Assembly (NCBI GenBank): GCA_000002445.1
Contig: CH464491.1
Span: 1,120,001 to 1,184,000 of the forward strand
Direction of reading: 5' to 3'
Origin: Trypanosoma brucei
Taxonomy: Eukaryota
DNA length: 64,000 bases
The notes beneath the pieces are model-generated. The model was not told the DNA's origin and did no database searches. It saw nothing but the letters and a program-made list of their open reading frames with translations. Shown here one piece after another: positions 43,661 to 63,243 of this stretch (its first letter is position 1; every line of letters begins with the position of its first letter). Made by a program: the position numbers and the translations under genes.

Positions 43661-43935
43661 GGGGGAAATGGTGAGGAGTCTGTGCTTGAGGAAAAGAAAT
43701 TAAAACGGTTACCGATGGTGGTGCTCTGTTTTCTTTTTTGTGTTTGTTGTTTTCTTGTGCGTATATGTATTTGTATGCGAATCTCACCGACTCTCAAAGT
43801 TTTGCATCACGATGATTCTATTTACTGCAATGCATAATGTTTATGCCGGCGGTTTGTAATTGGATAGGGGCACCTGCGGTTTGAAGAGAGGGGAGAAAAA
43901 GACATTTCTCAGAGAATAGTAACGTTTACTTCCAC

Positions 43936-45346: not shown

Positions 45347-46177
45347 ATGCTTCGAGCTTCTGTGTTGCTGCTTAAGTCAAGCATACGAACATCAGGATTG
45401 CTTTTACCATGGAAAATACGACCAGTGGCGGATACAATGGAGCGAAGAGATGCGTGGAAAGAGTTGGAGCAACTTCTCACTAGCATTACACGACTGAGTA
45501 ACGAGGAAGCGATAGAGAAGATGACCGAATTTTGTCCACGGCTTGCGATTTGTGACATTGAATACCCCGTCGAGACGCTACAACGCAAACGGCGGCTGGA
45601 GGAGCGGCGGATGTTGAGGCAACACCACGAAAATCGTAGTCGCAATGGTAAGAAGAAGGGGGAGCGTGAGCAGGTGACAGAAACCGTTACGTTAGCAGAC
45701 GATGAAGCCACTCGGAAATTGATGAAGAGCACCTTACGTATATTGGTTGCAAGGGCTCAAAAAAACTCTGGAACCAGCGACCGGGAGGTGGTGCGGGACA
45801 AAATGAAGAAATCCTCCTCAAAGATTATCGTTTCTTCATCCAGTGCCACACCTGCTCCCCTTCCGAGTAAAAGCGACGAGGGGAAGCGTAGCGGGGCCGA
45901 CAAAAAGGCGAACAGAGGCGAGGTTGATGGAACCCAAAACTCCAAACGAAAAGGAGAAGTTGAAAAATCAAGTGATTTGGTGAGTTCCCCCACAACCACA
46001 ACCACTGGAGCGACAGCAGCAGCAGCAGCAGCAGCAATGAATGTTTCTTCCTCTTCTACTTTTCCTTCTGGGGAAACTCCGTTTAGGGCTTCATCAACTG
46101 CATCCACTGCAGGAGTAAAAGGTGCGGATACATCGAGTGGTGGTGGTAGCGCATGCAAAACGGGGAAAGGTAAGTAG
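45347..46177 (+). CDS. Hypothetical protein, basic with Ser/Thr/Ala-rich tail
   Basis: 276-codon ORF. An alternative start lies at 45437 (MERRDAWKEL). The C-terminus is low-complexity. Confidence 0.45.
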   Translation: MLRASVLLLKSSIRTSGLLLPWKIRPVADTMERRDAWKELEQLLTSITRLSNEEAIEKMTEFCPRLAICDIEYPVETLQRKRRLEERRMLRQHHENRSRNGKKKGEREQVTETVTLADDEATRKLMKSTLRILVARAQKNSGTSDREVVRDKMKKSSSKIIVSSSSATPAPLPSKSDEGKRSGADKKANRGEVDGTQNSKRKGEVEKSSDLVSSPTTTTTGATAAAAAAAMNVSSSSTFPSGETPFRASSTASTAGVKGADTSSGGGSACKTGKGK

Positions 46178-47451
46178 ATAAAAGGTTGGGATTGTTTCGG
46201 TGTGTTAACAATCAGTTGAACACTAGACTGCAAAAAAAAAAAAAAGAAGAGCTTGAAAGATATGGAGGGATGGAGAGAGAAAAATGGGGCTGGAAACGGG
46301 GGAATGAAAATGCAGATCATGGTGTGATGACACAAGAGAGGAAAAAAAAAAAGAAGAAAGTGGAAAAGGGCGACGCTGTGCGAAACCCAGGTGTTAGGGT
46401 TGGTTAACTGTTGGAACTTTCACAAGTTTTTGAAAATGAGGAAAGGTGTAAATTGTAACTCCTTCCGTCTCCGTATGGTTCCCACTAGTGTGCATATGTA
46501 TACGCCTTTGTGGTGCGTCTCTCTGTCATGAACCGAAAGTAAAAGGGGGGTGAGGCCGTGTTGGAGTTATTCACTTTCAGTGTGTGCTCTAACTTAAATA
46601 TATAACGCCTCTTTTTCTCATCATTCTTCCCCTTTCCACACATGTACGGATGAGTGAAAAAAAAAAGGGGGAGTTTGTTTGTTTGCCTTTGTGAGTGGTG
46701 ACCAGAGGGGACAGTTAGAAACCCTGCGCAGTGTTGCTTTCAGTTCCTCTTTGCATCTCCTCCATCTCTCCACTGTGATTATGTTTCAAGGAGGCATTCT
46801 GTTTGGAGGGAACAAAACCGATGGTTTCATTTTCAATATGGGATGAAACGTTTAAACAATTATGAAACCTCAAAGATCGAAAGTATATACATACACACCT
46901 TTGCGCTTGGGGTGGAAAGATAGAAGGAAATGAAGGCCGTGCATTGAGCCGTTGTGTCACCGCCTAACTTTCCCCCCTCACTCCAATATTTGAGGTGGTG
47001 TAAATGACTTCTCCCTTCTTCCCTCATCCATGGTGATGTGTTTTACCATACTTCAGCCGTGTATTTTTGTTTTGTTTTACCTCAATTAATTCTCAAAACC
47101 AAAAGAAGAAAAGAAAGACGAGACGGTGAAAAGGCGACCGAGACACGTGTGTTCAGTTAACGCATTGGCTTCTCACGATATGAAGAATCGTTTACGTTCT
47201 CTTAGATAAGGCTTCACGTACACGCAGAACGCCACCATCGAAGAAAAGGCGGTAAAAAAAAAAAGAGAAGGGAAGAGAAGAGAAATTGGGAGAAACTACT
47301 CTACCACTTTGTTCGTGAATCGATTGCTCAGCTTCTTTATCACTACTTTTCTTCCCTCCTTTATTTCGCCATTTACTCATGTACACTCTTTTTTTACAGC
47401 CACCGCTGAAGGAAAGGATAGAGGGGCAGAGCTGGCGAGTCATATAGTTAG

Positions 47452-49116
47452 TTGCCAAACAAATATAACATGACCGTCTGCTTCAAATGCAAGTCAGCGT
47501 CAGCGGTGGTATGTAGCCGTGACGGGCCCACTAAAAGTTACTGTTCTTCATGCTTCACAGATTTTTGCACCCGCCTCACGCGGGACTCGCTTTTCCGCAA
47601 TTGCGGACTACCGTGCGATGAGCCGGTGGTAGTTGCCGTATCGGGAGGTTTTAGTTCCATGATGCTATTGCACCAACTCGGGATACTGCGGACGCAAAAT
47701 CGCATAAGACAAGGTGAAGGGCGTGTGACATTTGAACTCATTCCGCTGCACTTACGTGAAGAAGAACTTATGGCGCCAACCCAGCAGGGCCCCGTTAATG
47801 CGTTTGCGGATGAAGGTGATGATGCCCGTCAGGAAAACGGGAGGTATTGTCATACATTTTCTGAGGTGAAGGAACAGTTTGAAGAACTGGAGTGCCTGGT
47901 GCGCACGCAATGCGAACAGTGGGAATTTGCAAGCACCCCGCTATTCACAGCGGATGAAGTACAGATCGTGCAGTACAGTGATTATTTATCGCCTGATGAA
48001 CTACGTGGACTCCGGGAGGTGTTGCACCACCCGCGTATTCCGCTTTCGCACCGTGAACTTCTCTACAGGCGATTGCGTGGACGCATTCTGACCGTTGCAG
48101 CGGTTGAAAGTATTAACAAATGGAGGGACATCCGTCAAGTTTCGGGTCAGTGGTATCACATGTTGACGGGCGAGAACGCTCTCCGTTGTTGTGTGGCAAC
48201 GCTACGAGAGGTAATGAGCAATAGCAACAGCAATCGCATTGTCCATTTTGGTGGACATCGTGGTTTTCTGGGACAGTGCATGGTGATGCGGCCGTTACGA
48301 AGCCTTATTCCTCGCGAAGCTGTCATATACTGCCGCCTGCACGGCATCCAAGCAGGGTTTACACCTTCACTCAGTACCTTGACGGCTCTGCGCTCCTTCG
48401 ATCGTACCCTCGAAGTTTTTATTAATATCATGCTGGGTTCCTACCGCACATCCATTTTCAATGTACTGAACACGGTGACGAGACTAGACGTGGGTGCCGA
48501 TGCTGAAATACTGAATGTTGATTTGCGCACTGAACAAAGTGGGGGACCGTGTGGGGAAAATACAAAACAGGCAAAGCGTGTTATTGCCGGAAAAGCAGCA
48601 CAACACCACCGCGAGCAGTTAAAGATGAGGCGACCCATTTGTTGCCTATGGGAAGGCGCCGACATCAAAGGAGAGGAGGAGGCAGAGGAAAATGGCGAAG
48701 AAGGGAAATTGAGTAACCAGTCGCGGCGATTATGTCTTGTTTGTGGATGTTTCATCATTTGTGCGGATGAACACCCGGTAACGTTGCGATTTGGTCGGCG
48801 ATTTGTGTGTGAAAGCTGTCTCCAATTAATGAATGATTTCGCCAACACACGCCGCGCCGAAGCGGGAACTGAGAGTGAGCGAATATTAACGGATCCTGCC
48901 GTTCACTCCGCTGTTACCACCGGTCCCGGAACTATGCTTAGTGCTTTCGAGTCACTTACCACCACAATGCAAATGTTGGTTGCAGTAACAGGTAATTCGC
49001 CTTCTCTCGCTGGGAATGACGGTACTGGTGAGGATCGATGCGTGCGACGGCGCCTCAGTGCTCACGGCGCAGAAGAGTACATCTTACAGACAGATGATGG
49101 TGAGAAAGACAGTTAA
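47452..49116 (+). CDS. Cytoplasmic tRNA 2-thiolation protein 2 (CTU2/NCS2)-like
   Basis: An N-terminal CxxC...CxxC (CFKCKSASAVVCSRDGPTKSYCSSCF) is followed by a degenerate PP-loop, VVVAVSGGFSSMMLLHQL, as in CTU2 (CVKCK...CRDCF...LAWSGGPSSS). A C-terminal CLVCGC...CESC Cys cluster is present. The likely start is 47470. Confidence 0.55.
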   Translation: MPNKYNMTVCFKCKSASAVVCSRDGPTKSYCSSCFTDFCTRLTRDSLFRNCGLPCDEPVVVAVSGGFSSMMLLHQLGILRTQNRIRQGEGRVTFELIPLHLREEELMAPTQQGPVNAFADEGDDARQENGRYCHTFSEVKEQFEELECLVRTQCEQWEFASTPLFTADEVQIVQYSDYLSPDELRGLREVLHHPRIPLSHRELLYRRLRGRILTVAAVESINKWRDIRQVSGQWYHMLTGENALRCCVATLREVMSNSNSNRIVHFGGHRGFLGQCMVMRPLRSLIPREAVIYCRLHGIQAGFTPSLSTLTALRSFDRTLEVFINIMLGSYRTSIFNVLNTVTRLDVGADAEILNVDLRTEQSGGPCGENTKQAKRVIAGKAAQHHREQLKMRRPICCLWEGADIKGEEEAEENGEEGKLSNQSRRLCLVCGCFIICADEHPVTLRFGRRFVCESCLQLMNDFANTRRAEAGTESERILTDPAVHSAVTTGPGTMLSAFESLTTTMQMLVAVTGNSPSLAGNDGTGEDRCVRRRLSAHGAEEYILQTDDGEKDS

Positions 49117-52100
49117 CTGCTTCTTCAGAGTTGTAGGCTTTTGAACATGAGTTTCTATGGATATGTCGATCCTAAATTTTCGTTGTGTTTCCGCATGGTC
49201 GGCAATCGGTTGGATATGGTGCCGCACGACGTTAACTTTCCTTCCTCAGTTGATCTTGTAACAATGCGGGCCCAGATTTATGCATATACACGCGAGTGCT
49301 GAATGCATGATCCTTTCTAATACTTATCCATCCTCCTTCACTATTATCATAAGCTTTCTCGTGAAGATGTTAGAGGCGTCAGCCATATCTCTAAGAGTTG
49401 AGAGGCGAGACCTTTTAGTGCTCATCGTGCGTGCTAAAGAGGCAAGTTAGACGGCAACTCACAAGTGCGATGGGGGCTCATTCTTTTGGATTTGAGTCCG
49501 TACGAGCCTCAAAGAGTGGAACAATGGAATGTGCGAGAGGATGCCAATAAATAAGATTGAAAGGCACCATTCCGTCAACATCCTTAAGAGTTTGAACAGG
49601 TGGAGGTTCGACAAAATGTACGATCTGGTGAACGACCGAACCCGGCAGGTTTTGTGATACCCCTCGGAGGTGTGCGTGTGTCTGTGGCTTAACATATCGA
49701 AAAAAAAATGAAGCAGCGTTGCTTAAGTGGGTACTTATCGCGATTGTGCGGGAAGTAGGGAGAGGGGATATCTGTTTCAAAAAGAAATTATGAGGTAACG
49801 GCGGAAGGTTTCCCTCTTTACCTTTAGTAGATTGTTTTAAGCATTTATGTGAAACCTTTGTGTCGAACGCGTCCCGTATTTAATTAAGTGTGTGTTGGTG
49901 TGAAGAGGGGGAAACGCCGGGTTGTTTTGAGGAAAATCAGCAGTGAACAGTTGTGCGGTGGGGGGAGGGGGATAAAAGGGAAGTTAATCAAGCGGTTTTG
50001 CTCATCCCGTCTGTAGAACTGCCGCTCTTTTCACTCAACAGCGTTCCAGTTGTTGTGCGATCGGCATAAGTCTCACGAATCAAAAAATATACATATCGCA
50101 TGTAAAACTCGACGTATGAATTGATTCGCAAAAAGAAAGTATTCCACACTAATTATTTTGGGGACATGGGAGGTGAGAAAAGGGAGGGAATAAAATGGGC
50201 CTCAGGAAATGAGGATAATGTCTCGGTATATATACGACAGTGACGAAGGATAAGTTTTGCACTTTTGATAAAGGAAGTCCAAAGAGAAGGAACAAAAAGG
50301 TAGGAAGATACGCTAAAGACATCAACAGGAACCATTTGCCAAATGGATGTGAACGAACTTAAGGACCTAAGCCAGGACAATAAATATTAACTATTAAAAA
50401 AACATCAATAAGAGTGGCGCGACTTACATAAAAATAAACCTAACAGGATAATACAGATACCTTAACCATCAGCGGAAGATGGGCTTATGCGAGGAAATTG
50501 GTGAGGTTAGCTAAGTAGCTTGATATTGTCTCTCGATGGCACGTAAGCTTATTGGGTTAAACAACAAATTGTGGATTAACACCATACGCACCGGTTGTTC
50601 CTCAATATTCCAAGTGGTAGGAAACGTTGTCGTTACATCAAGAAGACAGTTTTCCAGTTACATTTGGTACCAGCGGTGCCATCGTTCTGAGATGGTGCTA
50701 CTGAAAAGACATTTTCACTTGTAGTATAATAACTCTGGTCTCAGCAACAGTGGGGTCGTTACATATTTGCTTTCTTTTTGCTTTTGCCATAATCCTAACA
50801 AACAGCACATGATGCATCCAATATTATAATTTTATTATGTTTACATGATTCTCAATACTTTTTACTTGGTTGTGGAAGATGTGGAGAAGGATGTGCACCT
50901 ATCGTGGAAATTAAATGCTGTGTCGCTGAAAAGGCGTTCAACGTATCCATTTTCCCTGTCGGAACTACCTCCTCCTCCCGCTGTTGTAGCAGCGAACACC
51001 AAATACGTGTCTTGTTACATTGTTTGGGACGTGGTCCTGGTGTGTGGAATGCGCCAGTGGTGTTCACTCATCAACCAAAAGATTAGTGTCGTTGTCTGTA
51101 TCCATAGGAAGCAAGTGTGTTGCGGAAGTTCCGTTTTAAGGGATCCTTGAGTGGATGAAGGTGTGGAAGAAATGGAAAGTGCGCACTGCGTGGCTGTTTC
51201 GGTGGCGCTGGACATAATGCAGGTTAGTGTCCCTCCAAATCTTACACAGTGCTCATCAGAATCAGAAAATAAGGAGGTTTTCAGTGCACCGTTCCCCGTG
51301 GTAAATTTAGTAAATTCATGACTTCCGGAAATTTATATTAAAAAATACGGAACCGCTGCCATCTTCAAAGATGGGAGCAACAAGTGGCGGCACCTGTGGA
51401 CCCGTAGGTGTGGGAGGAAATGATGCAGAGTGATAATTCCAGCGCGTGCAAGGATTTGAGAACCTTAGTTGGCGCACGGTATTTTACAAGGTGCTGACCA
51501 TTTGGGGAACGAGCACAAAAGAAGTTGAATTGAGATAAGGGGAAGAGACACAAAGAGTGGTGAGGTGTCAGTTTGCTACAGATGTTAAGAAAAAGTATAG
51601 AAGAGATGAATGAATAGGTATAAAAAAATAGGAGGCTTTAAGCTTCTCGAAAGACCTTGAAGTTCCGCCAAACAGGGGCAACTTCATGAAAGCGCCATAC
51701 GGCTGGGAAGCGGACACTGGAGAGCCCCTGTTGTGGCTCATAACGCAACGCGCATTGTGAAGGCGTGCTATCTGGGCCGCCAAACACGAAGTTGGGGAGT
51801 CCTCCAGAAGAGATTCCATATTCTCATGCAGGTAGCGCAACAAGCGGTAAAGAAAGGCAGTGCTCGGCTGCGTGGTCTGTGGCGAAGATAAAAAATACCA
51901 GAAGGTGGGATCCACAGACCGATGCAGCGGGAACGTTTGGTACTGCCAAACGAAATGGGCAAAATATACGGCAGCCGTGCAAGGTCAGCGTCCAGTGGAA
52001 CCCATAGGGCCACGTAGAGCTCTCTCGACTGTTGCCCAGACGCCAGAAACCTCCTTGGAGCAGACACACTTGCTTAGAGGAGGGCAGCATGCTGACCAGT

Positions 52101-53266
52101 CAGGTGCTGGCGGGGATCACAATAAGAAAGGAAATCACGCACGCGCAGTATATGGTTCCGAACCCGCAAAAAAAAAAAGTCTAGCAGCACCGTGGTTAGC
52201 GAACTTGGTAAAAATAACATCGAAAAAATGCAGAACTTAAAAAAAAAAGCGAACCACGAGTTAAACGGGTAGAGGTGAAGACGTTGTACGACGACACTGA
52301 AATGTTTCTTCGAGGGAGCTCGAGTAAACCAAGCGCTCTATATCGGATGGTAGCGGACAACCACCGAAAGTTAGAAATAAACTCAATACCTCACTGGAAA
52401 CCGAATCAACTGTCTATAGAATAAATGGTGAATCAGCGTCTCCAAGGAATGATGCAATCAAAAGCATTAGTAGAAGCGCTAGCAGTAGTCCCTCTTTATT
52501 GAAACGTGAGGATTATAAGCACGGGCAAACGTTCGCCGACCCGAGAGCTGAAACAAAATGCGAGTGTACAGATGGTAGATGCATTGTTTCTACGGGTAGA
52601 GCGGCTATTCCAATTTCAATGCGGCGATCAGCCGTCTCAGCGGACACGAAAACCCTTCAGGTGGCGTTGAATGTATCTTTAGCTCTTGCATAAGTAATTC
52701 AAGACAAGCCCCTGACTGGTTTCGAAATCGATTGAACTGGTAATATGTTTTATATTATTATTATTATTTCTTTTTGATCAAGCATCAACGAGTGTCACAT
52801 TTTTCAAATTCATTCAACGGATCTGTTGCGGTGAGTCAGAACGATTGTTCAGAACTTTCTCTGCTGTTCTCATGGTACCTATGCAGCAGCGCAAGCACAG
52901 AGTTTGTTTTAGTATTTTTTCGGAGAAGCATTCAATACGCAGGGGGTTAGTTTGCTGTTATGGCGGGAGAATGGGTCCGCTTTTTTGTAAGGGTGCCCCA
53001 GAGGGACACAAGGGTTGTCTTCCTTACATGGGGGCAGAAGTCACTGTCGTGAGAAAGCGACTCACTATTCGACTGGGGAAAAAACGGCAGTGATGTGGGC
53101 TGGGTAGTAACGGTAGTTTCTCATTAGAATAATCATGGTTGTGGGCGTGCCTTGCACACTTAACGAAATATTAATGTTGTGTAGTAAGTGTAGAGGGTTT
53201 GTTGAACCCGAAACAGCGGGTCTGTTTGAGTGATAGTCATTTGCGTTACATGCCAATCGTACTCAC
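49117..53266. other. 4.1-kb non-coding spacer inside the polycistron (contains repeat copy 1)
   Basis: No ORF longer than 130 aa on either strand. Too long for an ordinary trypanosomatid intergenic region. Confidence 0.5.
50815..51292. repeat. 478-bp direct repeat, copy 1
   Basis: Base-by-base identical to 58614-59091 except for 6 mismatches. Contains the ORFs 50845-51150 (+) and 50852-51067 (-), which recur in copy 2. Confidence 0.9.
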
Positions 53267-54379
53267 ATGATATGTCGTTTCCCTGTTGATATAAGTAAGG
53301 TGTGGGGCAACAAACGTTTTCAAGGGCAGTTATATCTTAATATGACTTCCGCAGGTCGTCCGCAGGTAACTCTTGACGAAAATTACACTGGAGAGGATGT
53401 GGGCAATTTGAGCCGCAGTGCCACTTTGGAATGCCTCACAGCCAAAAAGTGCGGAAAATTGAAGAGCGTGAAATTCGAAAAGGCAAAGAACCTCGTTTGC
53501 TTGCACGCCGAGAGTTGTGGAAAACTGAAAGTTATCGACGTGAGCTCTTGCTGCAAATTAGAGTCACTAACGGTCACGAAATGCAAAAATCTTAAAGAAG
53601 TGCATGGTCTTCCAGACGCATGTGAGTTGCTTGCTTTGAATTTATCTGGATGTGGAAAACTGGAACAGGTAGAGGGGTTATGTGCAACAAATATTAAGGT
53701 AAAGAAACTTAACTTGAGTGGCTGTAAGCTGTTGGAGCCTCTGGGAGTTTTGGGATGCTGCAAGAATGTGACAGAGTTGGATCTAAGTGGATGCAAAAAT
53801 ATCAACCAGAGCTCCATGGAGATAGCATGCAAAGAGCTCAACGGTCTGGAGACTCTGAAACTGAGCGGAGTTCCTACAGTATCAGATAATTGGGTTTGGT
53901 CCCTTGGGGTAAGCAACAGGTCTAACGCCAACCTGCTGTATTTGGACCTTTCTCGGTGCTTGGATATAGAAAATGCGGGGCCGTTGTCGATGATACGCTC
54001 CTTAAAGGAATTGTCTCTTGACGGCTGCACCAGCATTTCTAAGGGTTTGGAAGCGGTATGCGGTCTCCCCAACTTGAAGAAACTGTTATTGAGCAAAACG
54101 AAGGTAACAGATGAATGCCTCGAGAATATCAAAGGGAACAGAAACCTAGTGGTGCTTGGTTGCAGCGGGTGTCTAGGCATCAGCAGCATTTCGTGTATTG
54201 GGGAGGTAAAATCACTTGAAGAATTGTCCTTGGAGGGCTGCACTAACATTAAAAAAGGACTGGACATACTGCCTCGCCTTCCGAAACTTCAAAAATTGTG
54301 GATATGTGGCTTAAATGTTCCTGAAACAATAAAGCAAAAGCTAAAAACCCAGGGTGTCAAGACGAACCCACTCCGGTAG
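53267..54379 (+). CDS. ESAG8-like leucine-rich repeat protein (LRRP), lacking the N-terminal RING finger
   Basis: Tandem 23-25-aa LRRs in ESAG8 style: LNLSGCKLLEPLGVLGCCKNVTELDLSGCKNI, LEELSLEGCTNIKKGLDIL and LDLSRCLDIENAGPLSMIRSLKELSLDGC. The C-terminus resembles the ESAG8 tail. Confidence 0.65.
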   Translation: MICRFPVDISKVWGNKRFQGQLYLNMTSAGRPQVTLDENYTGEDVGNLSRSATLECLTAKKCGKLKSVKFEKAKNLVCLHAESCGKLKVIDVSSCCKLESLTVTKCKNLKEVHGLPDACELLALNLSGCGKLEQVEGLCATNIKVKKLNLSGCKLLEPLGVLGCCKNVTELDLSGCKNINQSSMEIACKELNGLETLKLSGVPTVSDNWVWSLGVSNRSNANLLYLDLSRCLDIENAGPLSMIRSLKELSLDGCTSISKGLEAVCGLPNLKKLLLSKTKVTDECLENIKGNRNLVVLGCSGCLGISSISCIGEVKSLEELSLEGCTNIKKGLDILPRLPKLQKLWICGLNVPETIKQKLKTQGVKTNPLR

Positions 54380-55212
54380 CCATACTGAAACATCATAATG
54401 AGACTTCATCTTCCCTCCCGCAACAACTTCCAGCAAGTGAGGTACATATACATAACATGTGTATATAGACGTATGTCCCCTAAAGGAAAAAAAAATGTGA
54501 TGCCTTTCAGAAGGCGCCGCGGCTATTTCTTTTTTCTCTTTATCTGGAGGCCAGCAGTGGTCTCCGTTATAGGTGAGTGGCACCTTCCCAATTGAACATT
54601 TATCCCGTAAAAAAAAAAAACAGTACTCTCACATACTGAAGTACATTCCAGTTCAGCGTATAAAGCTGTGGCACTACATGGCTTTCACTTTTAACGGAAA
54701 GCATTACTTACACTCTTATGTTTTGTTGGTTTTGGGTGTTGGAAAAAAACATGAACGTCGGGAAAGGATGATACATCGGTAATGGTTGTTAGTGTGAATG
54801 TGATTGTGTATTTCTCCCCACTTGTGCACTTGTTGCCACTACGGGGAGAAAATAATTTTGCTATGGGGGTATATAATACATACTTCGAACTAGTAAGTGG
54901 CGTGCGCTGCCCCTTGATTGATGCAGCTCTGTGAAGAGTGCTAACAGATACCTGACTTGACACTCCGTTTTGGGGTTCGGTATGTTGTACTTAAAGGTTT
55001 ACTGGAGGTTGGTGACTAAATAATTTATGCTTGGCTTCCTGTGTACGCACAGAAAGAACTAAACCTTTGTGGATGTGAATAATTGAAATGTTGGTGAAAT
55101 GCCACGTGCACTGTTCTGGAATGTAAATTATCGCGACGAGTGTGTTGAAGAAGTAACAGAGAAATTCTCTATCGTGATGATCTCCCTTCATTAGAGTTTT
55201 AGGTGAAAGAAA

Positions 55213-55887
55213 ATGCTGTCGGAAATGTTGTTGCTTTTGTGTATATTGTCTGTCGCATCGGTGCTCAGTTTTGAAGACATGGTAACGATGACAGTTTCGT
55301 GGCCTCACAACGCAAGTTGTAAGGGAATACAAGGTGACCCGCGTGTTTGTCGGGCCCTAGCGGTTCTTGTGAAAGACGCATTTTCGAGTCGCTGCAAAAC
55401 AGTTACAGGGGACGTACGCGCAACTACCGCCGAAGCGTCTTGTCACTTGCAGTTTAAAATTAATGAAGAAACTCCTCTTTATTACCTGTGTAATGGCGAT
55501 ACCGTGAGGGAGATTATGCAGAAGCAAGAGGACCTGCACCTACCTGCGCATACCAATGGAGAGCCCGACTGTAGCAAACTCCCTGCGCGTATTGAGCTCA
55601 GTTCCGACAAGGACAGCAAAAACGCTGCTACCGTGTCAGCACCAGCAAATACTGAGAAGGAATCCAAAGGGAAACCTGAAGAGAGTCCCGCGACCGAAAC
55701 ATCGGATAACGTGACCGAAAAAACTGTCCCAGAGAAGCCGACCATTAAGGGGCCACAGACTAAAAATGAAAAAACAGTGGATGTAAAGTCTACCGAGCCG
55801 CAGAGTAAACAAAACAGTGGATCCATGCGGTCCTTATTCGGTGACCGTTGTTTTTTTATTCCTCTTTTATACAGCATGTTACTTTGA
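55213..55887 (+). CDS. Small predicted surface protein with N-terminal signal peptide and C-terminal GPI-anchor-like hydrophobic tail
   Basis: The N-terminus is MLSEMLLLLCILSVASVLS. There are 6 Cys in the N-half and an acidic, K/T/E-rich spacer. The tail, GSMRSLFGDRCFFIPLLYSMLL, ends the protein. Confidence 0.5.
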   Translation: MLSEMLLLLCILSVASVLSFEDMVTMTVSWPHNASCKGIQGDPRVCRALAVLVKDAFSSRCKTVTGDVRATTAEASCHLQFKINEETPLYYLCNGDTVREIMQKQEDLHLPAHTNGEPDCSKLPARIELSSDKDSKNAATVSAPANTEKESKGKPEESPATETSDNVTEKTVPEKPTIKGPQTKNEKTVDVKSTEPQSKQNSGSMRSLFGDRCFFIPLLYSMLL

Positions 55888-56904
55888 ATGAACACTGGGC
55901 TCTAAAACCCATGACTCTTTGCTTTATTCCGAAGTCATACTTTATTAAGGCTTATACGCGATAACATCTTTTTGCTTGTACGTCCATTTACCCTCCTGTA
56001 ATACGCACGCACATATATCCCCTCATAATATTCGTAGAATCATGCAAACACAAACTGCTCATGAGATAACCGATACTATTTCCGTAGAGAGTATGTGTTG
56101 GTGTTGGCATAACTGTCTTGTCACATTGAGCGTATTTTGTGTGGAGTAATATTCGCTGACTGTTAAGAAGTTTAGGATAATAGGTTCCACTTCGTAGTGG
56201 CTTGCGTGTAGCGTGCATATCTTTGTGGAAAGGAAAACTAATCAATTGTTTGTTTGACACTTATTATAGTTTGTGGTAAACGAAAGCAGTGAATATTCCC
56301 ACTGCAAAGGGAGGGAATTCCTTATGTGTGTGAGTTTGAGGAAGCTTTTCCATCTCGTAGAGAGGTAATTCTCAACGAGCTAGGAAGTTGTCGAGTATGC
56401 GTAACCCAGGGCGAAGCAGTTTGGGGAGACCACATACGTGCGCACGTATCTGTACTTTCACGTATGTATATCCCATTTGTACCTATAGCATTCTATAAGC
56501 GTTTCTCGCCATTTAATTAAACAGTGTGCGCAGGCTACAACGACAACAAAAAAGGTTTCTGTTAAAATATATGGTGTCTCCACATTAAAACATGAGAAAA
56601 TGAGTTTACTTTCGGCTGGGGCTTCTCACATAGACACCGGGACTGCGTTTAACAGAGTTTTGTCGGGAACTCCTTGGGATGTAATTGGTAAAAGCTATAA
56701 CTCTATTTCGTTTTTTGTTGCATCGGTTCCCTATTTCCGGGACCCGGTTACACTTATCCAATATGTTGTTGGAATGTTAATGCTATATATTTGTGGTGTC
56801 AGGAAATGTTAATAATAGAACGTGCAGATTGTGCTACCTTTATAGTTCCTTTTCTGTGTATCTTCAAGAGGTGAATATATTGAGCAAAGTGGAAAGCAGG
56901 AAAA

Positions 56905-57975
56905 ATGTGTGGTATTAAATATTGCGTCGTTTTGTTTGCCTTGGTGCTCCGAACAAGTATCTCCGGGGAGGGAAAAATTGTCAATGAAGATGAATTTGGA
57001 GCCCTATGTGGTATGATAAATCTGGCTCAGGCTGGATTGAGGAAGATAAAGGAGGTCCGAGAAACCATTAAAGGTACGATAAGAATTGGATCAAGATGCC
57101 TCGAGCTTACTGGGGGTAGGGTATTGGACACGATTTGTGAGGGAGAAAATAGTAGAAACTGCGAAAATCGCAGAACGTTTTGGAAGAAAGCGGAAAGTTC
57201 ATCGAACAAAAAAATAGCCGGAGACGGTCTTCTAGATCGACAAACGGAGGAAATGATTAGGAAGATAGGAGGTGAAGCCGCAGACCTATATGAGGATGTC
57301 ACGAGGAAGCAATGGGTACCATTTGCAAATGCACTGGAAGAAAAAATCAACGAAGCCCTCTATGGTGTGCCTTGGAGACCAGAAGAGATTAAGGAAAACA
57401 CTACAGACAGAAAGCAACTATGTCAGCAGGAGATTTCACGGAACGCGGTGCATTACCCACCAGCGTCGTTGAGCAGGGATTTATTATGTGTCTGCGCGAT
57501 GGACCTGGAGTCAGTGAGGAAGCACAGACTTTGCTGCGAATTTTGCGGTTACGAAGATAATCGGGAGGTTTGGAAACCAAACAAGGATTCGTGGGAAAGA
57601 TGGAACTTTCTTCGAGCACACTGTGCATTTCTTGGAGAACCTAAGGAAGATTTCGAGAAACTTGCGAGCACGTTCAGGCGCCTGATAAATCAGCAACACA
57701 ACACGCCTATCGGGGTTATGTACATCTTGGGATACCAGAAGAGAAACAGCTTCTGGTCCCTTGGGCTCTCGTCAAGGGGACCTATGGGTCCGGGTGTGCA
57801 TTATGTTTTAATGGGAAAAGAGAAAACGACTGACGATATACCATGGTTGAAACTGTTGCGAGAGGTGACAATGGAGATGGGACAACCGGCTCAAGACAAT
57901 GTCCAAGAAGGTGAGTTCACAGAGGCCCTTGAGAAGTTGGAACAAGACCTCGAAAAATTGATTCAGACAAAGTGA
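56905..57975 (+). CDS. Cys-rich predicted secreted protein (signal peptide, no TM or GPI tail); possibly ESAG-like
   Basis: The N-terminus, MCGIKYCVVLFALVLRTSISGEG, is a signal peptide. There are about 14 Cys, including CEGENSRNC and CCEFC, and a hydrophilic C-terminus (EKLIQTK). Confidence 0.5.
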   Translation: MCGIKYCVVLFALVLRTSISGEGKIVNEDEFGALCGMINLAQAGLRKIKEVRETIKGTIRIGSRCLELTGGRVLDTICEGENSRNCENRRTFWKKAESSSNKKIAGDGLLDRQTEEMIRKIGGEAADLYEDVTRKQWVPFANALEEKINEALYGVPWRPEEIKENTTDRKQLCQQEISRNAVHYPPASLSRDLLCVCAMDLESVRKHRLCCEFCGYEDNREVWKPNKDSWERWNFLRAHCAFLGEPKEDFEKLASTFRRLINQQHNTPIGVMYILGYQKRNSFWSLGLSSRGPMGPGVHYVLMGKEKTTDDIPWLKLLREVTMEMGQPAQDNVQEGEFTEALEKLEQDLEKLIQTK

Positions 57976-58613
57976 GTTGGAGGTGGTTAGGAATCCTCCT
58001 ACGTATATATCCATTCCAATCAACCGGAATTTGGCAGGGGAAAATAGGTAACGAATAAGAGCAGTAAAGTAACGTGAGGAAAATGGTTTCAGAAAAAATA
58101 TTTTTTTAAAGGTCATGTCGGAAAGGGGGGATATATTGCCATAGAGAGATATTCATCCAACATGGCGGGGTAAGTCTCCGCCAGTAAAATTACTGTGATA
58201 TTTCTTAATTAAAGCGCATTGGGAGTGTTTCAATAATATGCGGTTGAGTTACCAGATTCTATACTCATATCCATTGTGCCTTCGCTTCGTAGGAAGGAGT
58301 TAATCTTCGAGAAACAATTCGTATCCATGGATCCCATCATATGGGAGGATAACTATGGAGTCGTCTTTTTTCAAGGGCATCCTGCTGCCGCAGCAACAGC
58401 AGCAGGAGGGCGGTGGAAAGTACAACTTTACTTAGGGACGCCTCCACTGCATGAATACCAGCGGAGCAAATAGTATGACCAACCATACTAGCATGTATAC
58501 TGTTTCAATGTCAGAATAAAAGGGGCACTAGCTACGGTAAAGCTCATTTCCCCTCTTTGCTTTAACTCTACCCCCAAAGGCGTGCGTACGATGCGCATTT
58601 ATCGTTTTGTCTT

Positions 58614-59091
58614 CATCCAATATTATAATTTTATTATGTTTACATGATTTTCAATACTTTTTACTTGGTTGTGGAAGATGTGGAGGAGGATGTGCACCTA
58701 TCGTGGAAATTAAATGCTGTGTCGCTGAAAAGGCGTTCAACGTATCCATTTTCCCTGTCGGAACTACCTCCTCCTCCCGCTGTTGTAGCAGCGAACACCA
58801 AATACGTGTCTTGTTACATTGTTTGGGACGTGGTCCTGGTGTGTGGAATGCGCCAGTGGTGTTCACTCATCAACCAAAAGATTAGTGTCGTTGTCTGTAT
58901 CCATAGGAAGCAAGTGTGTTGCGGAAGTTCCGTTTTAAGGGATCCTTGAGTGGATGAAGGTGTGGAAGAAATGGAAAGTGCGCACTGTGTGGCTGTTTCG
59001 GTGGCGCCGGACATAATGCAGGTTAGTGTCCCTCCAAATCTTACACAGTGCTCATCAGAACCAGAAAATAAGGAGGTTTTCATTGCACCGT
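58614..59091. repeat. 478-bp direct repeat, copy 2
   Basis: Constant offset of 7799 bp from copy 1. Flanks diverge immediately outside both ends. Confidence 0.9.
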
Positions 59092-60158
59092 GCGGTGTTG
59101 CATCTTCAATACCCGCTTCATATTGGGATACATTCAATAAGATACGTCGGGCCACCATTTTACACTTTGTGCTATAGCATACGTGTGTGCAACCAACTTC
59201 GTTGTTCAGTCGAATACGTGGACCCATATATCCCCTCGATAGAAAACACGCGAAGTAGTGTTTACGGCATTTAATGATTTCACTTGACCTAACTTCTTGT
59301 AGGATGGTATGCGCGTGTGGTCACGCTGCTGCTTTTCTTTCGTCTCGGAGGCGGTGTGGGAGTCAGGTGACAGGTTGTTGCGGTATACTAGCGTTGCGAT
59401 ATGCATGGTACTGGTTTTATCACAGTTGTGGTAGAGACGCTTTTCTTTGGCGCCGTGGTACGCAAAATAAAAAAGAAAAAAACATTAATATAACCTGATG
59501 CGAATGTCTCGGGAAGTTAAGGAACCGTGCGGAAGCGGCGGGGGTGTGGAGCCCAGACTCAAGGGTTGCGTGCACCTGGGCGATTTAACATTTTTTTTTT
59601 TACAAAACTGCTGATGGTCAAGGGAGATTGTAATTGCTGTTAACTCTATGGGAAGGGAGCCGACGGACCAGACGCTAAGTGGTAGGGGATCAATTCGTGA
59701 CATTGATTATGATATATGAACGCTTTACACAAAAGATGCAAAGGGTGTAATTATATCCCCCTTGGTTGGAAGTGCTTCATTCACTTGTATCCGCTCTCAG
59801 AAGCCGGTTACACCATCGGGGGTGTGTGCATACTGGGGCACATGCCTCCATTTTGTTCTGTTTGTTGCGACCACCGTCAGCGTAGTAATACATATCACAT
59901 CTTTTGTTTCTTCGCTGCTGTTGCCAAGAGGATATCGGAGGGAAAGTGTGCCACAGAGCACGCGAACTGCCTGCCGTATGTAGTTTTACGTGTGGCGGAA
60001 TGCTGGGAGAGAGGATACGATGCGCCGAAAAGGGAAAAGTACGCACACTGTGGTGCCCTGAAAGGCTTGAGAGAAGTGGCTGTTACTGTTTATTAGTGAG
60101 GCATCATGCTCTCTGTTGTTGTTCGCTTTGAGGATTTGCTTGCGTCCGCTCTCTGGTT

Positions 60159-61466
60159 TTGACGTTATTTTTTTTTTCTTACGATCAGGATGTCTGTAAC
60201 AGCAAGGGCAGCAAAGGAAGAGAAGTTTTAGCGATGCTAATGAACACCCCGCTAAAGAGGGTAGAAGACATACCACCACTTCTTCGTGAACGGCTTACGA
60301 AAGCAGAGGAGAGCGGGTGGAAAATTCTTGACCTCTCGGGTTGTAAAGAAACTTTGGATGTCACGGCGCTCACTGAGGTCGGCATGCTGGAACAACTATC
60401 CCTGGAGGGTTGCACAAACTTGAGAAGAGGGCTGCGGGAAATATGCAACGGGGAAAGAACGCGCAATCTGAGGACGCTGCACTTAAGCAACCTACCCATG
60501 CTTGATGACACATGCATTAAGATATTGGGGGGAACACACCTACGGCTCGAACTGTTCACCTGCGCACACTGTAAGAACGTAACGAACGTTAGGCCCCTAG
60601 CGGAAATCAAGGCCCTGAAGAGCCTTTCGCTCGGACACTGCGTGAATATCAAGCATGGTCTGAAGGAAATTTGCGGAGGTCTGACGAATATGAGGGCTCT
60701 CTGGATCAACCACATACCGGCTGTCGACGATGCGTGCATTGCGGAGCTCGGCGCAAAAGGCGACGGTTACGAAGGCCATCTGATTTGGTTAATTTGCGAT
60801 GGATGTCTTGGGATAACGGATGTTACGGCCATTTCGGAGATCAAGACATTAAAGAGACTTTCGCTGACGGGATGCGAGAACATAACGAAGGGGCTAGAGG
60901 AGATGTGCGCCAGTGAGAAACTGCAGGACCTGCAAGACCTATGGGTGAATAACGTGAAGGCGTTCAGTGATAAGTGCCTTTTGAATCTGGAGGAAAGTCA
61001 CAGGAAGGGCGGATGGAAACTGCAGGTGCTCAGCACCAAAGACTGCTGCAGCATAACAGACGTGTCACCCCTGGGGAAGCTGGTAACGTTGAGGGTGCTA
61101 TGCCTTGACGGGTGCGTGAACATTAAACAAGGTCTGGATCATGTCATACTGTCGCTGGTCGATTTGAGGGAAGCGTACTTGGGAGGCATTGGCATAACCG
61201 ATAGGCATATTGAGCTGCTTGGTCGCCACAAAAAAATTGAACGATTACACCTCCCTTTTTCAGGGAACATTACAGATATTACTCCCTTAACGAATGTCTG
61301 GACACTGGAGGCTTTGTGCTTGTGCGGGTGTCTAAAGGCTACAAGGGGATTTGAAAAGTTTTCTACACTCTTCAGACTCAAAAAGTTGTGTGTGTGTGGT
61401 GTTTACGTCGATGCGGACACAGTCATGGCCCTAAAGGGTAAAGGAGTGGCTGTGAAGCTGTGGTAG
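60159..61466 (+). CDS. ESAG8-like leucine-rich repeat protein (LRRP), second copy
   Basis: LRRs include LEQLSLEGCTNLRRGLREI, LKSLSLGHCVNIKHGLKEICGG, LKRLSLTGCENITKGLEEMC and LRVLCLDGCVNIKQGLDH. The likely start is MLMNTP at about 60233, after a polyY tract at 60165-60180. Confidence 0.65.
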   Translation: MTLFFFSYDQDVCNSKGSKGREVLAMLMNTPLKRVEDIPPLLRERLTKAEESGWKILDLSGCKETLDVTALTEVGMLEQLSLEGCTNLRRGLREICNGERTRNLRTLHLSNLPMLDDTCIKILGGTHLRLELFTCAHCKNVTNVRPLAEIKALKSLSLGHCVNIKHGLKEICGGLTNMRALWINHIPAVDDACIAELGAKGDGYEGHLIWLICDGCLGITDVTAISEIKTLKRLSLTGCENITKGLEEMCASEKLQDLQDLWVNNVKAFSDKCLLNLEESHRKGGWKLQVLSTKDCCSITDVSPLGKLVTLRVLCLDGCVNIKQGLDHVILSLVDLREAYLGGIGITDRHIELLGRHKKIERLHLPFSGNITDITPLTNVWTLEALCLCGCLKATRGFEKFSTLFRLKKLCVCGVYVDADTVMALKGKGVAVKLW

Positions 61467-63243
61467 TGCAACGCTACGACTCACGACGTGCTGCCAAACA
61501 GGCGCAGCGCCATGTTCGCTGTGATTGTCGTCGCAATGGATGAAATTGGGAAGGTAAAAGAGCAACTGGTGATGACCATTTTAGCGCGGTTGTGCTTGGC
61601 AGTATTTCTCCCTATAAATCCCTTCTTTTTGATTTTAGAGCTAAAGGTAGTGGCGGTGGTATTCGCATATACTTCTGTGTAGTGGCATTCGGGTTGTATG
61701 TGTTTTCCGAAGACTTGCCACACATACATATATATATATATAGAAACAGTGGGGGTTGGAAACCACGTGTCGCAAGCGGGTGCGTCACTGACAACATATA
61801 ACACCTCATGAGGCGGCGAGCATTTGGCTTCGTCCGGGGGCTCAACATTCGGGTTAGAAACGGTATTACATGCAAGAAAATGTGGGTAGCCAAAGGAGGA
61901 AATACGCCGGCATGCTTTCTGTCCACGATGTCGTTTTTAAGCCCCGTGATCATGGCCTCTTCAGGTCCGGCAGCCTGATAAGGATAAGCTTTGGAAGGCT
62001 TCAGCTGTCGGTTTGCGGCCCGCGCACCACAATTCCCCCCCCGCCCGCCTCCATGGCAGGGGCTGTTTGAGCGAGTAAGCAGAGCGCTCTCAGCACCCCA
62101 ATCGCAAATGGCTGTGGGTTTCCTTTCGTTTCTCTGCCGCGCCCCGTACGTAGTGTCTGGTCAAGCTGTTTTCCAAAGGCACCGCTCTTAATGGCACCGA
62201 GTATGCGCGGCACTCCAGGAGTGTGTTCCACTTGATTCCTCCGTTACTGCGGTCGTATCATTGTAATAACGGCGCTACCAAAAAAACGACAGCGCCTGTT
62301 GTGCACTGTAAGGCCAACCGCGCCTACCATACGTCAAAGGTTTCGAAGTTGGGTTGCTTAGGCATGGTTTTGCTTTGTTCCGCATTTTCCTCACCCTTTC
62401 ATCACTCATTCCACCCGGGTTTCTCCCGACAATTCGCCTCAAGTTGAGCTTCGCTGCGCTGTGGTCCATTTGCTGCTAGACAAATGTTCCGCCCGCAAAC
62501 GACCATCCAACACTTGCCGGCGCGTGCCCATCTTTCTAAACGCGGGACGCCATACAACAACGTGGCGCCTTGCATCCATTCCGGCGGCTGGTGGTGGTCC
62601 GTATCCCTCCAGTCCCCTCAAGTGTACCAAATTTAAGTGCATTGGTTACAAGTCAGCGTTACTCAAGTTTCCAAGTGGTTGTCAAGGCCATTTCCCCCGC
62701 ACCCACGATGGATCAACCAGTTTCAGCCACTTATGGCTGCCAGTTGTGCGACTTAACTGCTCCGCACCCCTTCCCGCTTTGCGGCGGTGTGAGTGATGAC
62801 GGAAGCGCCACAACACATTTAGTGGAAGGCGGCCTCGCGCTCGCCACTGTCGATTGAGTTGCCGGCATGGTGGCGTTAGGGCGGAAATGGGCCCGGGACC
62901 GCCCCCTCCCTCATGCCCTTGGGCGTGAAGACCCCTAATGTATGATTTGCTAAAGGACGTAAAGGGAAGAGAAGGGAAGAATCACCTCTTCGCAGCATCG
63001 GATAAGTTGGTGAAATCCACTGGACGCAAGGCGCCACATACCGCCGGTGCTCCTGCGCATAATGGAAAAGTGAAAAAAAAGATACCCATTTCTGACCCTC
63101 CCTAGAGTGCACACGCTTTTCCCCCGGAAAGCGCTATGGTGAAGGAAACGCGATTAACCGGGCATCACTCCCAGCACCCAGAAAGCATGTGTTAATAATA
63201 TGTGGCTCTGTAAGGCCCATCTCCGCGCGCTTCCGCACTCGCT
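61467..63243. other. Convergent strand-switch region, GC-rich and ORF-poor
   Basis: The last plus-strand gene ends at 61466 and a minus-strand gene ends at 63244. Composition shifts to GC-rich (a run of 8 C, 62033-62040). Only short overlapping ORFs are present. Confidence 0.6.

What the first reader, a model, noticed from the sequence alone, without database searches (positions are those of the whole stretch)
50815..59091. Near-identical 478-bp direct repeats bracket a 7.3-kb segment of surface/LRR genes
Copy 1 (50815-51292) and copy 2 (58614-59091) differ at only 6 positions, and both boundaries are sharp. Such high identity for a 0.5-kb non-coding or pseudo-coding element implies a recent duplication, a mobile-element remnant, or ongoing gene conversion. 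Repeats in this orientation can mediate deletion or amplification of the intervening LRRP, GPI-protein and secreted-protein genes. Each copy carries the same 100-codon ORF (50845-51150 and 58644-58949, VVEDVE.DVHLSWKLNAVSLKRRSTYPFSL...), which may be a fragment of a larger dispersed family (RHS, ingi/RIME or an ESAG pseudogene).
Basis: seen in the sequence. Interest (0 to 1): 0.7.

Follow-up and report, generated by a model that had tools for sequence, protein, structure and literature searches.

The report
Direct repeats that delete a surface-gene island
Two near-identical 478-bp non-coding repeats flank a 7.3-kb island of bloodstream-stage surface genes on Trypanosoma brucei chromosome 11, and the sequenced T. 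b. gambiense strain carries exactly the deletion that recombination between them predicts, which makes this a clear natural example of an already known kind of genome instability.

Summary
Window 50815-51292 and 58614-59091 are gap-free 478-bp direct repeats with 6 mismatches and sharp edges, and no third copy lies in the window. The window is T. brucei brucei TREU927 chromosome 11. The repeats (R1, R2) lie in intergenic DNA around Tb11.02.1564 (LRRP), Tb11.02.1565 (GPI-type hypothetical) and Tb11.02.1566 (VSG-related), between CTU2 and LRRP Tb11.02.1580, next to a convergent strand-switch region.

T. b. gambiense DAL972 has one R. Its left flank is R1's and its right flank is R2's, so 7,799 bp are missing. 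The IVM-t1 assembly has both copies and the island without gaps. DAL972 and IVM-t1 flanks differ by 0.08-0.21%, yet both differ about 1-1.4% from 927, and the islands of IVM-t1 and 927 differ by 1.9%. The island is therefore older than the haplotype split, and DAL972 most likely lost it by R1xR2 homologous recombination.

The IVM-t1 copies differ from each other at 2 sites but from 927 R2 at 12-14, which indicates gene conversion. The 101-codon ORF has no homologue and no Pfam match, and its changes are mostly non-synonymous. I found no retroposon, RHS or ESAG features.

This is a new instance of a known class: low-copy intergenic repeats, and VSG/ESAG island indels.

The parts
50815..51292 (+). 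R1, the upstream 478-bp direct repeat. It is intergenic, 1,699 bp downstream of the CTU2 stop codon and 1,974 bp upstream of LRRP Tb11.02.1564.
   Evidence: Orthologous copies: IVM-t1 (L002 584-1061) and, for the first 73 bp, OVI (L003 6670-6742).
58614..59091 (+). R2, the downstream 478-bp direct repeat. It is intergenic, 638 bp downstream of the VSG-related gene's stop codon and 1,142 bp upstream of LRRP Tb11.02.1580.
   Evidence: Orthologous copies: IVM-t1 (L002 8390-8867) and OVI (L003 8381-8858).
51293..58613 (+). The 7,321-bp island between the repeats. Island plus one repeat makes 7,799 bp, the unit missing from T. b. gambiense DAL972.
   Evidence: L001 1-8866 aligns to window 42424-51292, and L001 8389-11494 aligns to window 58614-61728. 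There are no N runs in L001.
53267..54379 (+). Tb11.02.1564, a leucine-rich repeat protein (LRRP) of 370 aa, reported as up-regulated in bloodstream forms.
   Evidence: PMC2771046; PMC2837033. It is intact and identical at protein level in IVM-t1, where it is not annotated.
55213..55887 (+). Tb11.02.1565, a hypothetical 224-aa protein with an N-terminal signal-like and a C-terminal hydrophobic (GPI-signal-like) segment.
56905..57975 (+). Tb11.02.1566, a VSG-related (VR) protein of 356 aa with a full-length Pfam VSG_B match, reported 8-fold up in bloodstream forms.
   Evidence: (E = 1.7e-69), PMC2771046.
50845..51150 (+). The 101-codon ORF inside R1 (twin at 58644-58949 in R2). It is most likely a chance ORF.
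   Evidence: No exact or homologous protein is on record, there is no Pfam match, and the varying codons are 7 non-synonymous to 1 synonymous.
50944..50987 (+). Pyrimidine-rich tract inside R followed by AG at 50988 (twin at 58743-58786, AG at 58787). It is a candidate trans-splicing/polyadenylation signal. This is inference only.
   Evidence: simple scan; no transcript data were available.
47470..49116 (+). Left anchor gene: cytoplasmic tRNA 2-thiolation protein 2 (CTU2; EAN79372), conserved across trypanosomatids.
60234..61466 (+). Right anchor gene: LRRP Tb11.02.1580 (410 aa; EAN79377). It is the last gene on the + strand here. The genes called beyond it in the orthologous loci are on the minus strand, so a convergent strand-switch region follows.

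Best explanation
R1 and R2 are a local pair of non-coding, intergenic, low-copy direct repeats. They border a T. brucei-specific island of bloodstream-stage surface-type genes (LRRP, a GPI-type hypothetical and a VSG-related gene). The island sits at a lineage-specific synteny breakpoint next to a convergent strand-switch region on chromosome 11. At 478 bp and about 99% identity, the repeats are good substrates for the parasite's homologous-recombination machinery, and two outcomes are visible. (1) Non-reciprocal exchange (gene conversion, possibly with short-patch mismatch repair) keeps the two copies alike within a genome, so paralogues resemble each other more than orthologues do. (2) Crossing-over or single-strand annealing between R1 and R2 removes one repeat plus the island as a 7,799-bp unit. 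The T. b. gambiense DAL972 chromosome carries this product, derived recently from an island-bearing haplotype like that of IVM-t1. Shown here: the repeat, the exact deletion junction, the haplotype relationships and the homogenisation pattern. Inferred: the molecular route (intrachromatid pop-out, unequal sister-chromatid exchange or annealing after a break), how the 478-bp duplication first arose, and any role of R in RNA processing.
For: Repeat geometry. Organism and genes. DAL972 junction: L001 has a single R (8389-8866), with R1's left flank and R2's right flank, and no gaps. The DAL972 accessions CBH17350 (CTU2) and CBH17351 (LRRP2) are consecutive, and no DAL972 protein falls in the 90% clusters of the three island genes. 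Polarity: DAL972 and IVM-t1 flanks differ by 12/5594 on the left and 4/4921 on the right, and every difference is a singleton. Each differs about 1.0-1.4% from 927. The 927 and IVM-t1 islands differ by 1.87%, and intergenic divergence is 1-2% both inside and outside the island with no step at R. The island was therefore present before these haplotypes split, and DAL972 is nested in the island-bearing IVM-like group. Conversion: pairwise differences are 2 within IVM-t1 and 6 within 927, against 14 for R2 of 927 versus R2 of IVM-t1 and 8 for R1 versus R1. At six sites both 927 copies share one base and both IVM-t1 copies share the other, and 927 R1 is a patchwork of the two types. Substrate competence: T. 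brucei recombination efficiency rises with length and plateaus near 200 bp, and mismatches can be fixed by short-patch repair (PMC1904282). Class precedent: 773 intergenic direct or inverted repeats of >=200 bp and >=85% identity were catalogued in T. brucei, with PCR-confirmed rearrangements (PMC4028189). VSG/ESAG islands are a stated cause of brucei/gambiense indels (PMC2854126).
Against: The deletion rests on one Sanger-era DAL972 assembly. Jackson et al. state that only Tb09.211.4990 is absent from the DAL972 read library. The island may therefore exist in DAL972 reads, either as a heterozygous deletion or as a collapsed assembly. It is unclear whether that statement covered VR/LRRP genes. 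DAL972's single R is uniformly of the R1/IVM type, so it is not a visible R1/R2 chimera. That fits a parent with homogenised copies but does not prove crossing-over. In a sexual species an ancestral empty allele could persist, and two nearby crossovers could place the island on the IVM-like background. The IVM-t1 copies were polished with short reads, which can artificially homogenise repeats. However, every position of a 478-bp repeat lies within 239 bp of unique flank and the MiSeq reads were 300 bp. The genome-wide copy number of R is unknown.
Confidence: 0.75

Rival explanations
1. Insertion rather than deletion. The DAL972 arrangement (single R) is the ancestral empty site. The island entered by homologous integration of a circular or linear DNA that carried its own copy of R, which creates the flanking direct repeats. 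The IVM-like haplotype later obtained the island by allelic recombination.
For: Single-crossover integration of a circle carrying R gives exactly an R-island-R structure with sharp edges (inference). T. vivax and T. cruzi have no LRR or VSG genes downstream of CTU2, so the island was acquired at some time in the T. brucei lineage. The two R archetypes differ at 12 of 478 sites (2.5%), slightly more than allelic divergence.
Against: DAL972 flanks are almost identical to those of island-bearing IVM-t1 right up to R. The nearest differences lie 793 bp to the left and 161 bp to the right. The IVM-t1 island is as diverged from 927's as the flanks are. LRRP1 has no close paralogue anywhere in the protein collection, the next best hit being 30-35% identical, so no recent donor is visible. 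This reading explains the origin of the structure but not the DAL972 allele.
Confidence: 0.1
2. The DAL972 'deletion' is an assembly artefact or only one of two alleles. The repeats are a passive local duplication with no demonstrated consequence.
For: Two reads overlapping only within a 478-bp repeat of 99% identity could be wrongly joined. Jackson et al. report only one 927 gene missing from the DAL972 read library.
Against: L001 is gap-free across the junction. No DAL972 protein clusters with any of the three island genes, even though the DAL972 neighbours CTU2 and LRRP2 are in the collection. The same paper says 6 of 17 VSG/ESAG islands are unique to one subspecies. The evidence for conversion between copies does not depend on DAL972.
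Confidence: 0.1
3. R is a remnant of a dispersed mobile or multigene element (RIME/ingi, RHS, ESAG pseudogene).
For: Its size (478 bp) is close to that of RIME (about 500 bp, from my own knowledge). Transposable elements are a known cause of indels between the subspecies.
Against: R has no poly(A) tail and no target-site duplication, and the four flanks are unrelated. The empty allele retains one R bounded by R1's left and R2's right flank, which is the signature of recombination rather than transposition. No frame matches any Pfam family at threshold, including RHSP, reverse transcriptase and VSG/ESAG domains. The ORF has no homologue in 5.8 billion proteins, a collection that includes T. brucei annotations. 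Nothing in Rfam matches.
Confidence: 0.03
4. R is kept nearly identical because it is functional. It could be a shared RNA-processing or regulatory module (polypyrimidine tract plus AG, or a UTR element) or a non-coding RNA, and its recombination effects would be a by-product.
For: R contains a 44-nt pyrimidine-rich tract followed by AG. LRRP1, the VR gene and LRRP2 are all up-regulated in bloodstream forms. The single R is retained in DAL972.
Against: Between haplotypes R diverges as fast as or faster than neighbouring intergenic DNA (1.67% for R1 and 2.93% for R2, against 1-1.8%), so purifying selection is not evident. There is no Rfam match. No transcript evidence could be consulted.
Confidence: 0.1

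Closest known systems
Low-copy intergenic direct/inverted repeats ('repeat alignment groups') of Leishmania, also catalogued in T. brucei (Ubeda et al. 2014, PMC4028189)
   Same: R is a non-coding intergenic repeat of >=200 bp and >=85% identity, with both copies on one chromosome in direct orientation and 1-100 kb apart. Recombination between the copies rearranges the genes in between. That paper reports 773 such repeats in T. brucei with PCR-confirmed junctions.
   Different: In Leishmania the product is a replicating extrachromosomal circle that is amplified under selection, and many of the repeats are SIDER retroposon relics. Here the visible product is a fixed chromosomal deletion in a natural lineage. 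No circle or amplification is shown, and R shows no retroposon features. I could not check whether this pair is in their list.
Core-chromosome VSG/ESAG 'islands' of T. brucei (Jackson et al. 2010, PMC2854126; Jackson et al. 2013, PMC3605285)
   Same: This is a non-telomeric cluster holding a VSG-related gene and an ESAG8-like LRRP next to a strand-switch region. Its genes are T. brucei-specific and bloodstream-expressed, and it is present in one subspecies genome and absent in the other.
   Different: Those papers attribute such indels to segmental duplication or insertion and do not describe flanking 478-bp repeats for this locus. This island lies on the same strand as its neighbours, not the opposing one.
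Non-allelic homologous recombination between low-copy repeats or segmental duplications, as in human genomic disorders (own knowledge)
   Same: Direct repeats of high identity cause recurrent deletion of the interval and show gene conversion between the copies.
   Different: The human repeats are typically 10-400 kb. Here 478 bp suffices, in line with the roughly 200-bp plateau for T. brucei recombination.
Other variable VR-gene loci, e.g. Tb927.8.7300-7330, a VR plus hypothetical tandem repeat absent from T. evansi STIB805 and DAL972 (Carnes et al. 2015, PMC4288722)
   Same: It is a VSG-related gene plus a hypothetical gene whose presence varies among Trypanozoon strains, DAL972 included.
   Different: That locus is a tandem duplication of the genes themselves. 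Here the genes are single-copy and only a non-coding 478-bp unit is duplicated.
RIME/ingi retroposons
   Same: RIME is of similar length, and these elements are known to cause indels between T. brucei subspecies.
   Different: R has no poly(A) tail, no target-site duplication and no protein similarity, and the empty site keeps one copy.

Membership tests
Low-copy intergenic recombinogenic repeats (Ubeda 2014 criteria) | Non-coding, intergenic sequence | tested here: met
   None of the 927, DAL972, OVI or IVM-t1 annotations has a gene in R. The ORF has no homologue and no Pfam match.
Low-copy intergenic recombinogenic repeats (Ubeda 2014 criteria) | Length 200-2,500 bp, identity >=85%, both copies on the same chromosome | tested here: met
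   478 bp, 98.7% identity, 7,799 bp apart, direct orientation. Criteria are from PMC4028189.
Low-copy intergenic recombinogenic repeats (Ubeda 2014 criteria) | The predicted rearrangement junction is actually found | tested here: met
   The DAL972 chromosome has left flank-R-right flank with 7,799 bp missing. This is a natural allele, not a PCR product.
Low-copy intergenic recombinogenic repeats (Ubeda 2014 criteria) | Extrachromosomal circular product or amplification | not testable with these tools
   It needs outward-facing PCR or read-depth data.
Core-chromosome VSG/ESAG island (Jackson 2010) | Non-telomeric cluster containing VSG, VR or ESAG-like genes | tested here: met
   VSG_B domain protein named 'VSG-related' and an LRRP. 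The locus lies about 1.18 Mb into a 4.5-Mb chromosome in DAL972.
Core-chromosome VSG/ESAG island (Jackson 2010) | Often on the strand opposite to neighbouring genes | tested here: not met
   All island genes are on the + strand, like CTU2 and LRRP2. The paper says 'often', so this feature is not obligatory.
Core-chromosome VSG/ESAG island (Jackson 2010) | Lineage-specific, absent from outgroup synteny | tested here: met
   In T. vivax and T. cruzi, CTU2 is followed by kinase/DSP/C2CD5 genes with no LRR or VSG gene. T. congolense could not be fetched.
RIME/ingi retroposon | 3' poly(A) tail and short target-site duplications | tested here: not met
   R ends ...GTGCACCGT with no A run, and the four flanks share nothing.
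RIME/ingi retroposon | An empty site lacks the element entirely | tested here: not met
   The DAL972 empty allele retains one full R.
RIME/ingi retroposon | Sequence similarity to the ingi/RIME consensus, including the conserved 5' signature | not tested
   No reference RIME/ingi DNA was available. Only protein-level searches were possible, and they were negative.
RHS / ESAG / VSG pseudogene fragment | Recognisable protein domain in some reading frame | tested here: not met
   Seven stop-free segments from the reading frames of R gave no Pfam hit at or near a gathering score.
Recent tandem segmental duplication of a gene unit | DNA homology extends over the duplicated genes | tested here: not met
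   Only the 478 bp match. LRRP1 and LRRP2 share 26-35% protein identity and no detectable DNA similarity.

The most novel reading that the evidence does not exclude
The island behaves as a reversible cassette. R would act like an attachment site for homologous recombination, so the 7.8-kb unit can pop out as a circle and re-integrate at any R. That would make presence or absence of these bloodstream-stage surface genes a switchable, selectable trait, with the loss in human-infective group-1 T. b. gambiense being adaptive rather than incidental.
Probability: 0.07. Interest if true: 0.6.

Novelty: new member of a known kind. Interest (0 to 1): 0.35.

Why it matters
The locus is a clean, base-pair-resolved natural example of a short non-coding repeat pair removing a block of stage-specific surface genes in an African trypanosome. 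It also shows homogenisation of the repeats. The example links three things: the laboratory rules for T. brucei recombination (length dependence, short-patch repair), the bioinformatic catalogue of recombinogenic repeats, and the observed variability of VSG/ESAG islands between subspecies. In practice the locus offers a simple PCR marker (empty versus occupied) for strain typing. It is also a tractable place to measure spontaneous repeat-mediated deletion or circle formation. It further shows that Tb11.02.1564-1566 are dispensable, at least on one DAL972 chromosome. It does not reveal a new mechanism.

Tried and rejected
- **Exact-protein look-ups of window genes** returned nothing. The TREU927 record seems not to be indexed, so orthologous loci were reached through cluster members from other strains.
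- **Rfam** found nothing at gathering thresholds on the whole window or at E<=1 on R. The only row was a 17.7-bit match to a human lncRNA model, far below its 60-bit cut-off.
- **Pfam on seven stop-free segments from the reading frames of R** gave only sub-threshold noise, for example APOBEC-like and TSP1 hits of 14-19 bits on a cysteine-rich 49-mer. I rejected these.
- **R as a relic of the genes that follow CTU2 in outgroups** (kinase, dual-specificity phosphatase): tblastn of the T. cruzi and T. vivax proteins against the window gave no hit in or near R.
- **70-bp-type or other tandem repeats at the island edges**: none found.
- **The T. congolense orthologous locus** could not be fetched.
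- **Supplementary files of the gambiense genome paper** held as text do not mention these genes.
- **Genome-wide copy number of R** could not be measured. The DNA collections offered hold bacteria, archaea, viruses, metagenomes, phages, plasmids and E. coli, so I ran no scan of them.
- **The first 73 bp of OVI R1** carry three private differences next to an assembly gap. I treated them as unreliable.

Full report
**Observation.** MAFFT of both copies with 100-bp flanks, the repeat finder and blastn with word size 9 all give 50815-51292 against 58614-59091. The match is 478 bp with 6 mismatches, no gaps and 98.745% identity, and start-to-start spacing is 7,799 bp. Similarity ends abruptly on both sides. 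There is no other self-similarity between 44-64 kb and the rest of the window. An nhmmer profile built from six copies finds nothing else, even weakly, in the window or the fetched loci.

**Where we are.** The LRR protein at 53267-54379 is 100% identical to Tb11.02.1564 of T. brucei brucei TREU927, on a 5.26-Mb record that is chromosome 11. Exact look-ups give the annotated order EAN79371 to EAN79377:
- a 276-aa hypothetical;
- CTU2, cytoplasmic tRNA 2-thiolation protein 2 (47470-49116);
- LRRP Tb11.02.1564;
- Tb11.02.1565, a 224-aa protein with signal-like and GPI-signal-like ends (55213-55887);
- a VSG-related protein, listed as Tb11.02.1566 in PMC2771046, with a full-length VSG_B domain (56905-57975; Pfam E = 1.7e-69);
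- a 126-aa 'hypothetical, unlikely' ORF (59716-60096);
- LRRP Tb11.02.1580 (60234-61466).

R1 lies between CTU2 and the first LRRP, and R2 between the VR gene and the second LRRP. No annotation places a gene in R. The two LRRPs share only 26-35% protein identity and no DNA similarity, so this is not a recent tandem duplication of a gene unit. Published microarray data list Tb11.02.1564 (5.1-fold), Tb11.02.1566 (8-fold) and Tb11.02.1580 (2.2-fold) as up in bloodstream forms (PMC2771046; see also PMC2837033).

**Is R coding or a known element?** The 101-codon ORF is present in all five full copies examined. However, 7 of the 8 codons that vary among them change the amino acid. The ORF has no exact entry and no homologue among 5.8 billion proteins. 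Neither it nor six other stop-free segments from the reading frames of R reach any Pfam threshold. Rfam finds nothing. R has no poly(A) tail and no target-site duplication, and its four flanks are unrelated. It is not a detectable relic of the genes that follow CTU2 in outgroups. R does contain a 44-nt pyrimidine-rich tract followed by AG, the kind of signal used for trans-splicing and coupled polyadenylation. That is only a lead.

**Comparative evidence.**
- *T. b. gambiense DAL972* (L001, FN554974.1). L001 1-8866 aligns to window 42424-51292, and L001 8389-11494 aligns to window 58614-61728. DAL972 therefore has a single R bounded by R1's left flank and R2's right flank, and lacks exactly one repeat plus the island (7,799 bp). 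The region has no gaps. CTU2 and LRRP2 have consecutive accessions, and none of the three island proteins has a DAL972 member in its 90% cluster.
- *IVM-t1* (L002/L005, GCA_003543875.1; 45 contigs assembled from PacBio and MiSeq reads, PMC6395869). It has both copies 7,806 bp apart and the whole island, gap-free, with an intact LRRP1.
- *T. equiperdum OVI* (L003). It has R2, part of the island and the first 73 bp of R1 before a 10-N scaffold gap.

**Deletion or insertion?** Over 5.6 kb to the left and 4.9 kb to the right of the repeats, DAL972 and IVM-t1 differ at 12/5594 and 4/4921 sites, and every difference is a singleton. Each differs from 927 by about 1.0-1.4%. The island of IVM-t1 differs from that of 927 by 1.87%. 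Segment by segment, intergenic divergence is 1-2% both inside and outside the island, with no step at R. The island was therefore already present when the 927-like and IVM-like haplotypes separated. DAL972 sits inside the IVM-like group, so it most simply lost the island recently by recombination between R1 and R2. This fits geography: IVM-t1 groups with a lineage of West/Central African origin, and OVI with East African ones (PMC8549356). Further back, the island and LRRP2 are lineage-specific. In T. vivax and T. cruzi, CTU2 is followed on the same strand by kinase/phosphatase genes and a C2CD5-like gene. In T. brucei the C2CD5 block is inverted, and the LRRP/VR genes occupy the breakpoint next to the resulting convergent strand-switch region.

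**Concerted evolution.** Pairwise differences over 478 bp are as follows:

| Comparison | Differences |
|---|---|
| 927 R1 vs 927 R2 | 6 |
| IVM-t1 R1 vs IVM-t1 R2 | 2 |
| 927 R2 vs IVM-t1 R2 | 14 |
| 927 R1 vs IVM-t1 R1 | 8 |
| 927 R2 vs OVI R2 | 1 |
| DAL972 R vs IVM-t1 R1 | 2 |

The duplication predates the haplotype split, so without exchange paralogues should differ at least as much as orthologues. They differ less. At six sites (repeat positions 9, 13, 115, 116, 220, 291) both 927 copies carry one base and both IVM-t1 copies the other. 927 R1 is a patchwork of the 'R2 type' (927 R2, OVI R2) and the 'R1 type' (DAL972, IVM-t1). This is the signature of gene conversion between the copies. 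The patchiness is compatible with the short-patch mismatch repair described for T. brucei recombination (PMC1904282). One caveat is that short-read polishing can homogenise repeats. Here, though, every position of R is within 239 bp of unique sequence and the MiSeq reads were 300 bp.

**Mechanism.** T. brucei recombination efficiency rises linearly from 50 to 200 bp and then plateaus (PMC1904282), so 478 bp at 99% identity is a fully competent substrate. Crossing-over within one chromatid, unequal sister exchange, or single-strand annealing after a break in the island would each leave one R and remove 7,799 bp. These routes cannot be told apart from the sequence. How the 478-bp duplication first arose is also unresolved. 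The sharp edges argue for a single event that accompanied island acquisition, for example integration through homology at R, rather than an ancient tandem duplication with a conversion-maintained patch.

**Relation to what is known.** Ubeda et al. screened T. brucei for intergenic repeats of >=200 bp and >=85% identity. They found 773 and confirmed predicted rearrangements by PCR (PMC4028189), and R1/R2 meets all their criteria. Jackson et al. reported that core-chromosome VSG/ESAG islands are a principal cause of brucei/gambiense indels, with 6 of 17 islands unique to one subspecies (PMC2854126). They also reported that VR genes and other T. brucei-specific bloodstream surface families sit by strand-switch regions (PMC3605285). 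A similar VR locus on chromosome 8 is absent from DAL972 and T. evansi (PMC4288722). I found no paper that describes the flanking repeats or the junction at this particular locus.

**Caveats.** The same gambiense paper says only one 927 gene is absent from the DAL972 read library. The deletion may therefore be heterozygous or, less likely, an assembly collapse. Read mapping would settle this. The copy number of R elsewhere in the genome could not be measured with the collections available.

**Verdict.** The 'dispersed element or coding fragment' reading is not. This is a well-resolved new instance of a known class, of moderate interest.

Noticed in passing
window 55213-56904: Tb11.02.1565 (GPI-type hypothetical) and the spacer after it are a divergence hot spot between TREU927 and IVM-t1, at 4.3% against about 1% background. 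In the coding part 19 codons changed non-synonymously and 7 synonymously, concentrated in the C-terminal half. This may reflect diversifying selection or old allelic lineages of a surface protein.
   Followed up: partly
window 49116-62500; L004 (T. vivax) and L006 (T. cruzi): This is a synteny breakpoint. In T. vivax and T. cruzi, CTU2 is followed on the same strand by kinase/DSP genes, a C2CD5-like gene and a gene of roughly 640 aa. In T. brucei the C2CD5 block is inverted, and the LRRP/VR genes fill the junction beside a convergent strand-switch region.
   Followed up: partly
L002 3038-4150 (= window 53267-54379): LRRP Tb11.02.1564 is intact and identical at protein level in IVM-t1 (3 synonymous changes) but is not annotated in that assembly. 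That is why its protein cluster has a single member.
   Followed up: yes
L003 6743-6752: The T. equiperdum OVI scaffold has a 10-N gap that replaces window 50888-56985. It starts 73 bp into R1, so the repeat probably broke that short-read assembly. The 73 bp next to the gap carry three private differences.
   Followed up: partly
window 61724-61742: A dinucleotide microsatellite in the strand-switch region is length-polymorphic. DAL972 carries 16 extra bases of (AC)n relative to 927, IVM-t1 and OVI.
   Followed up: no
window 47470-49116: The TREU927 record names this gene 'hypothetical protein, conserved'. UniRef and several other trypanosomatid records name the orthologues cytoplasmic tRNA 2-thiolation protein 2. 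Pfam gave no hit.
   Followed up: no
window 59716-60096: A 126-aa ORF annotated 'hypothetical protein, unlikely' (EAN79376) lies between R2 and LRRP2. It is also called in OVI but not in DAL972 or IVM-t1.
   Followed up: no
window 3106-3168 and 43595-43657: The repeat finder reports a 63-nt inverted pair, 75% complementary and 40 kb apart. This is probably chance.
   Followed up: no
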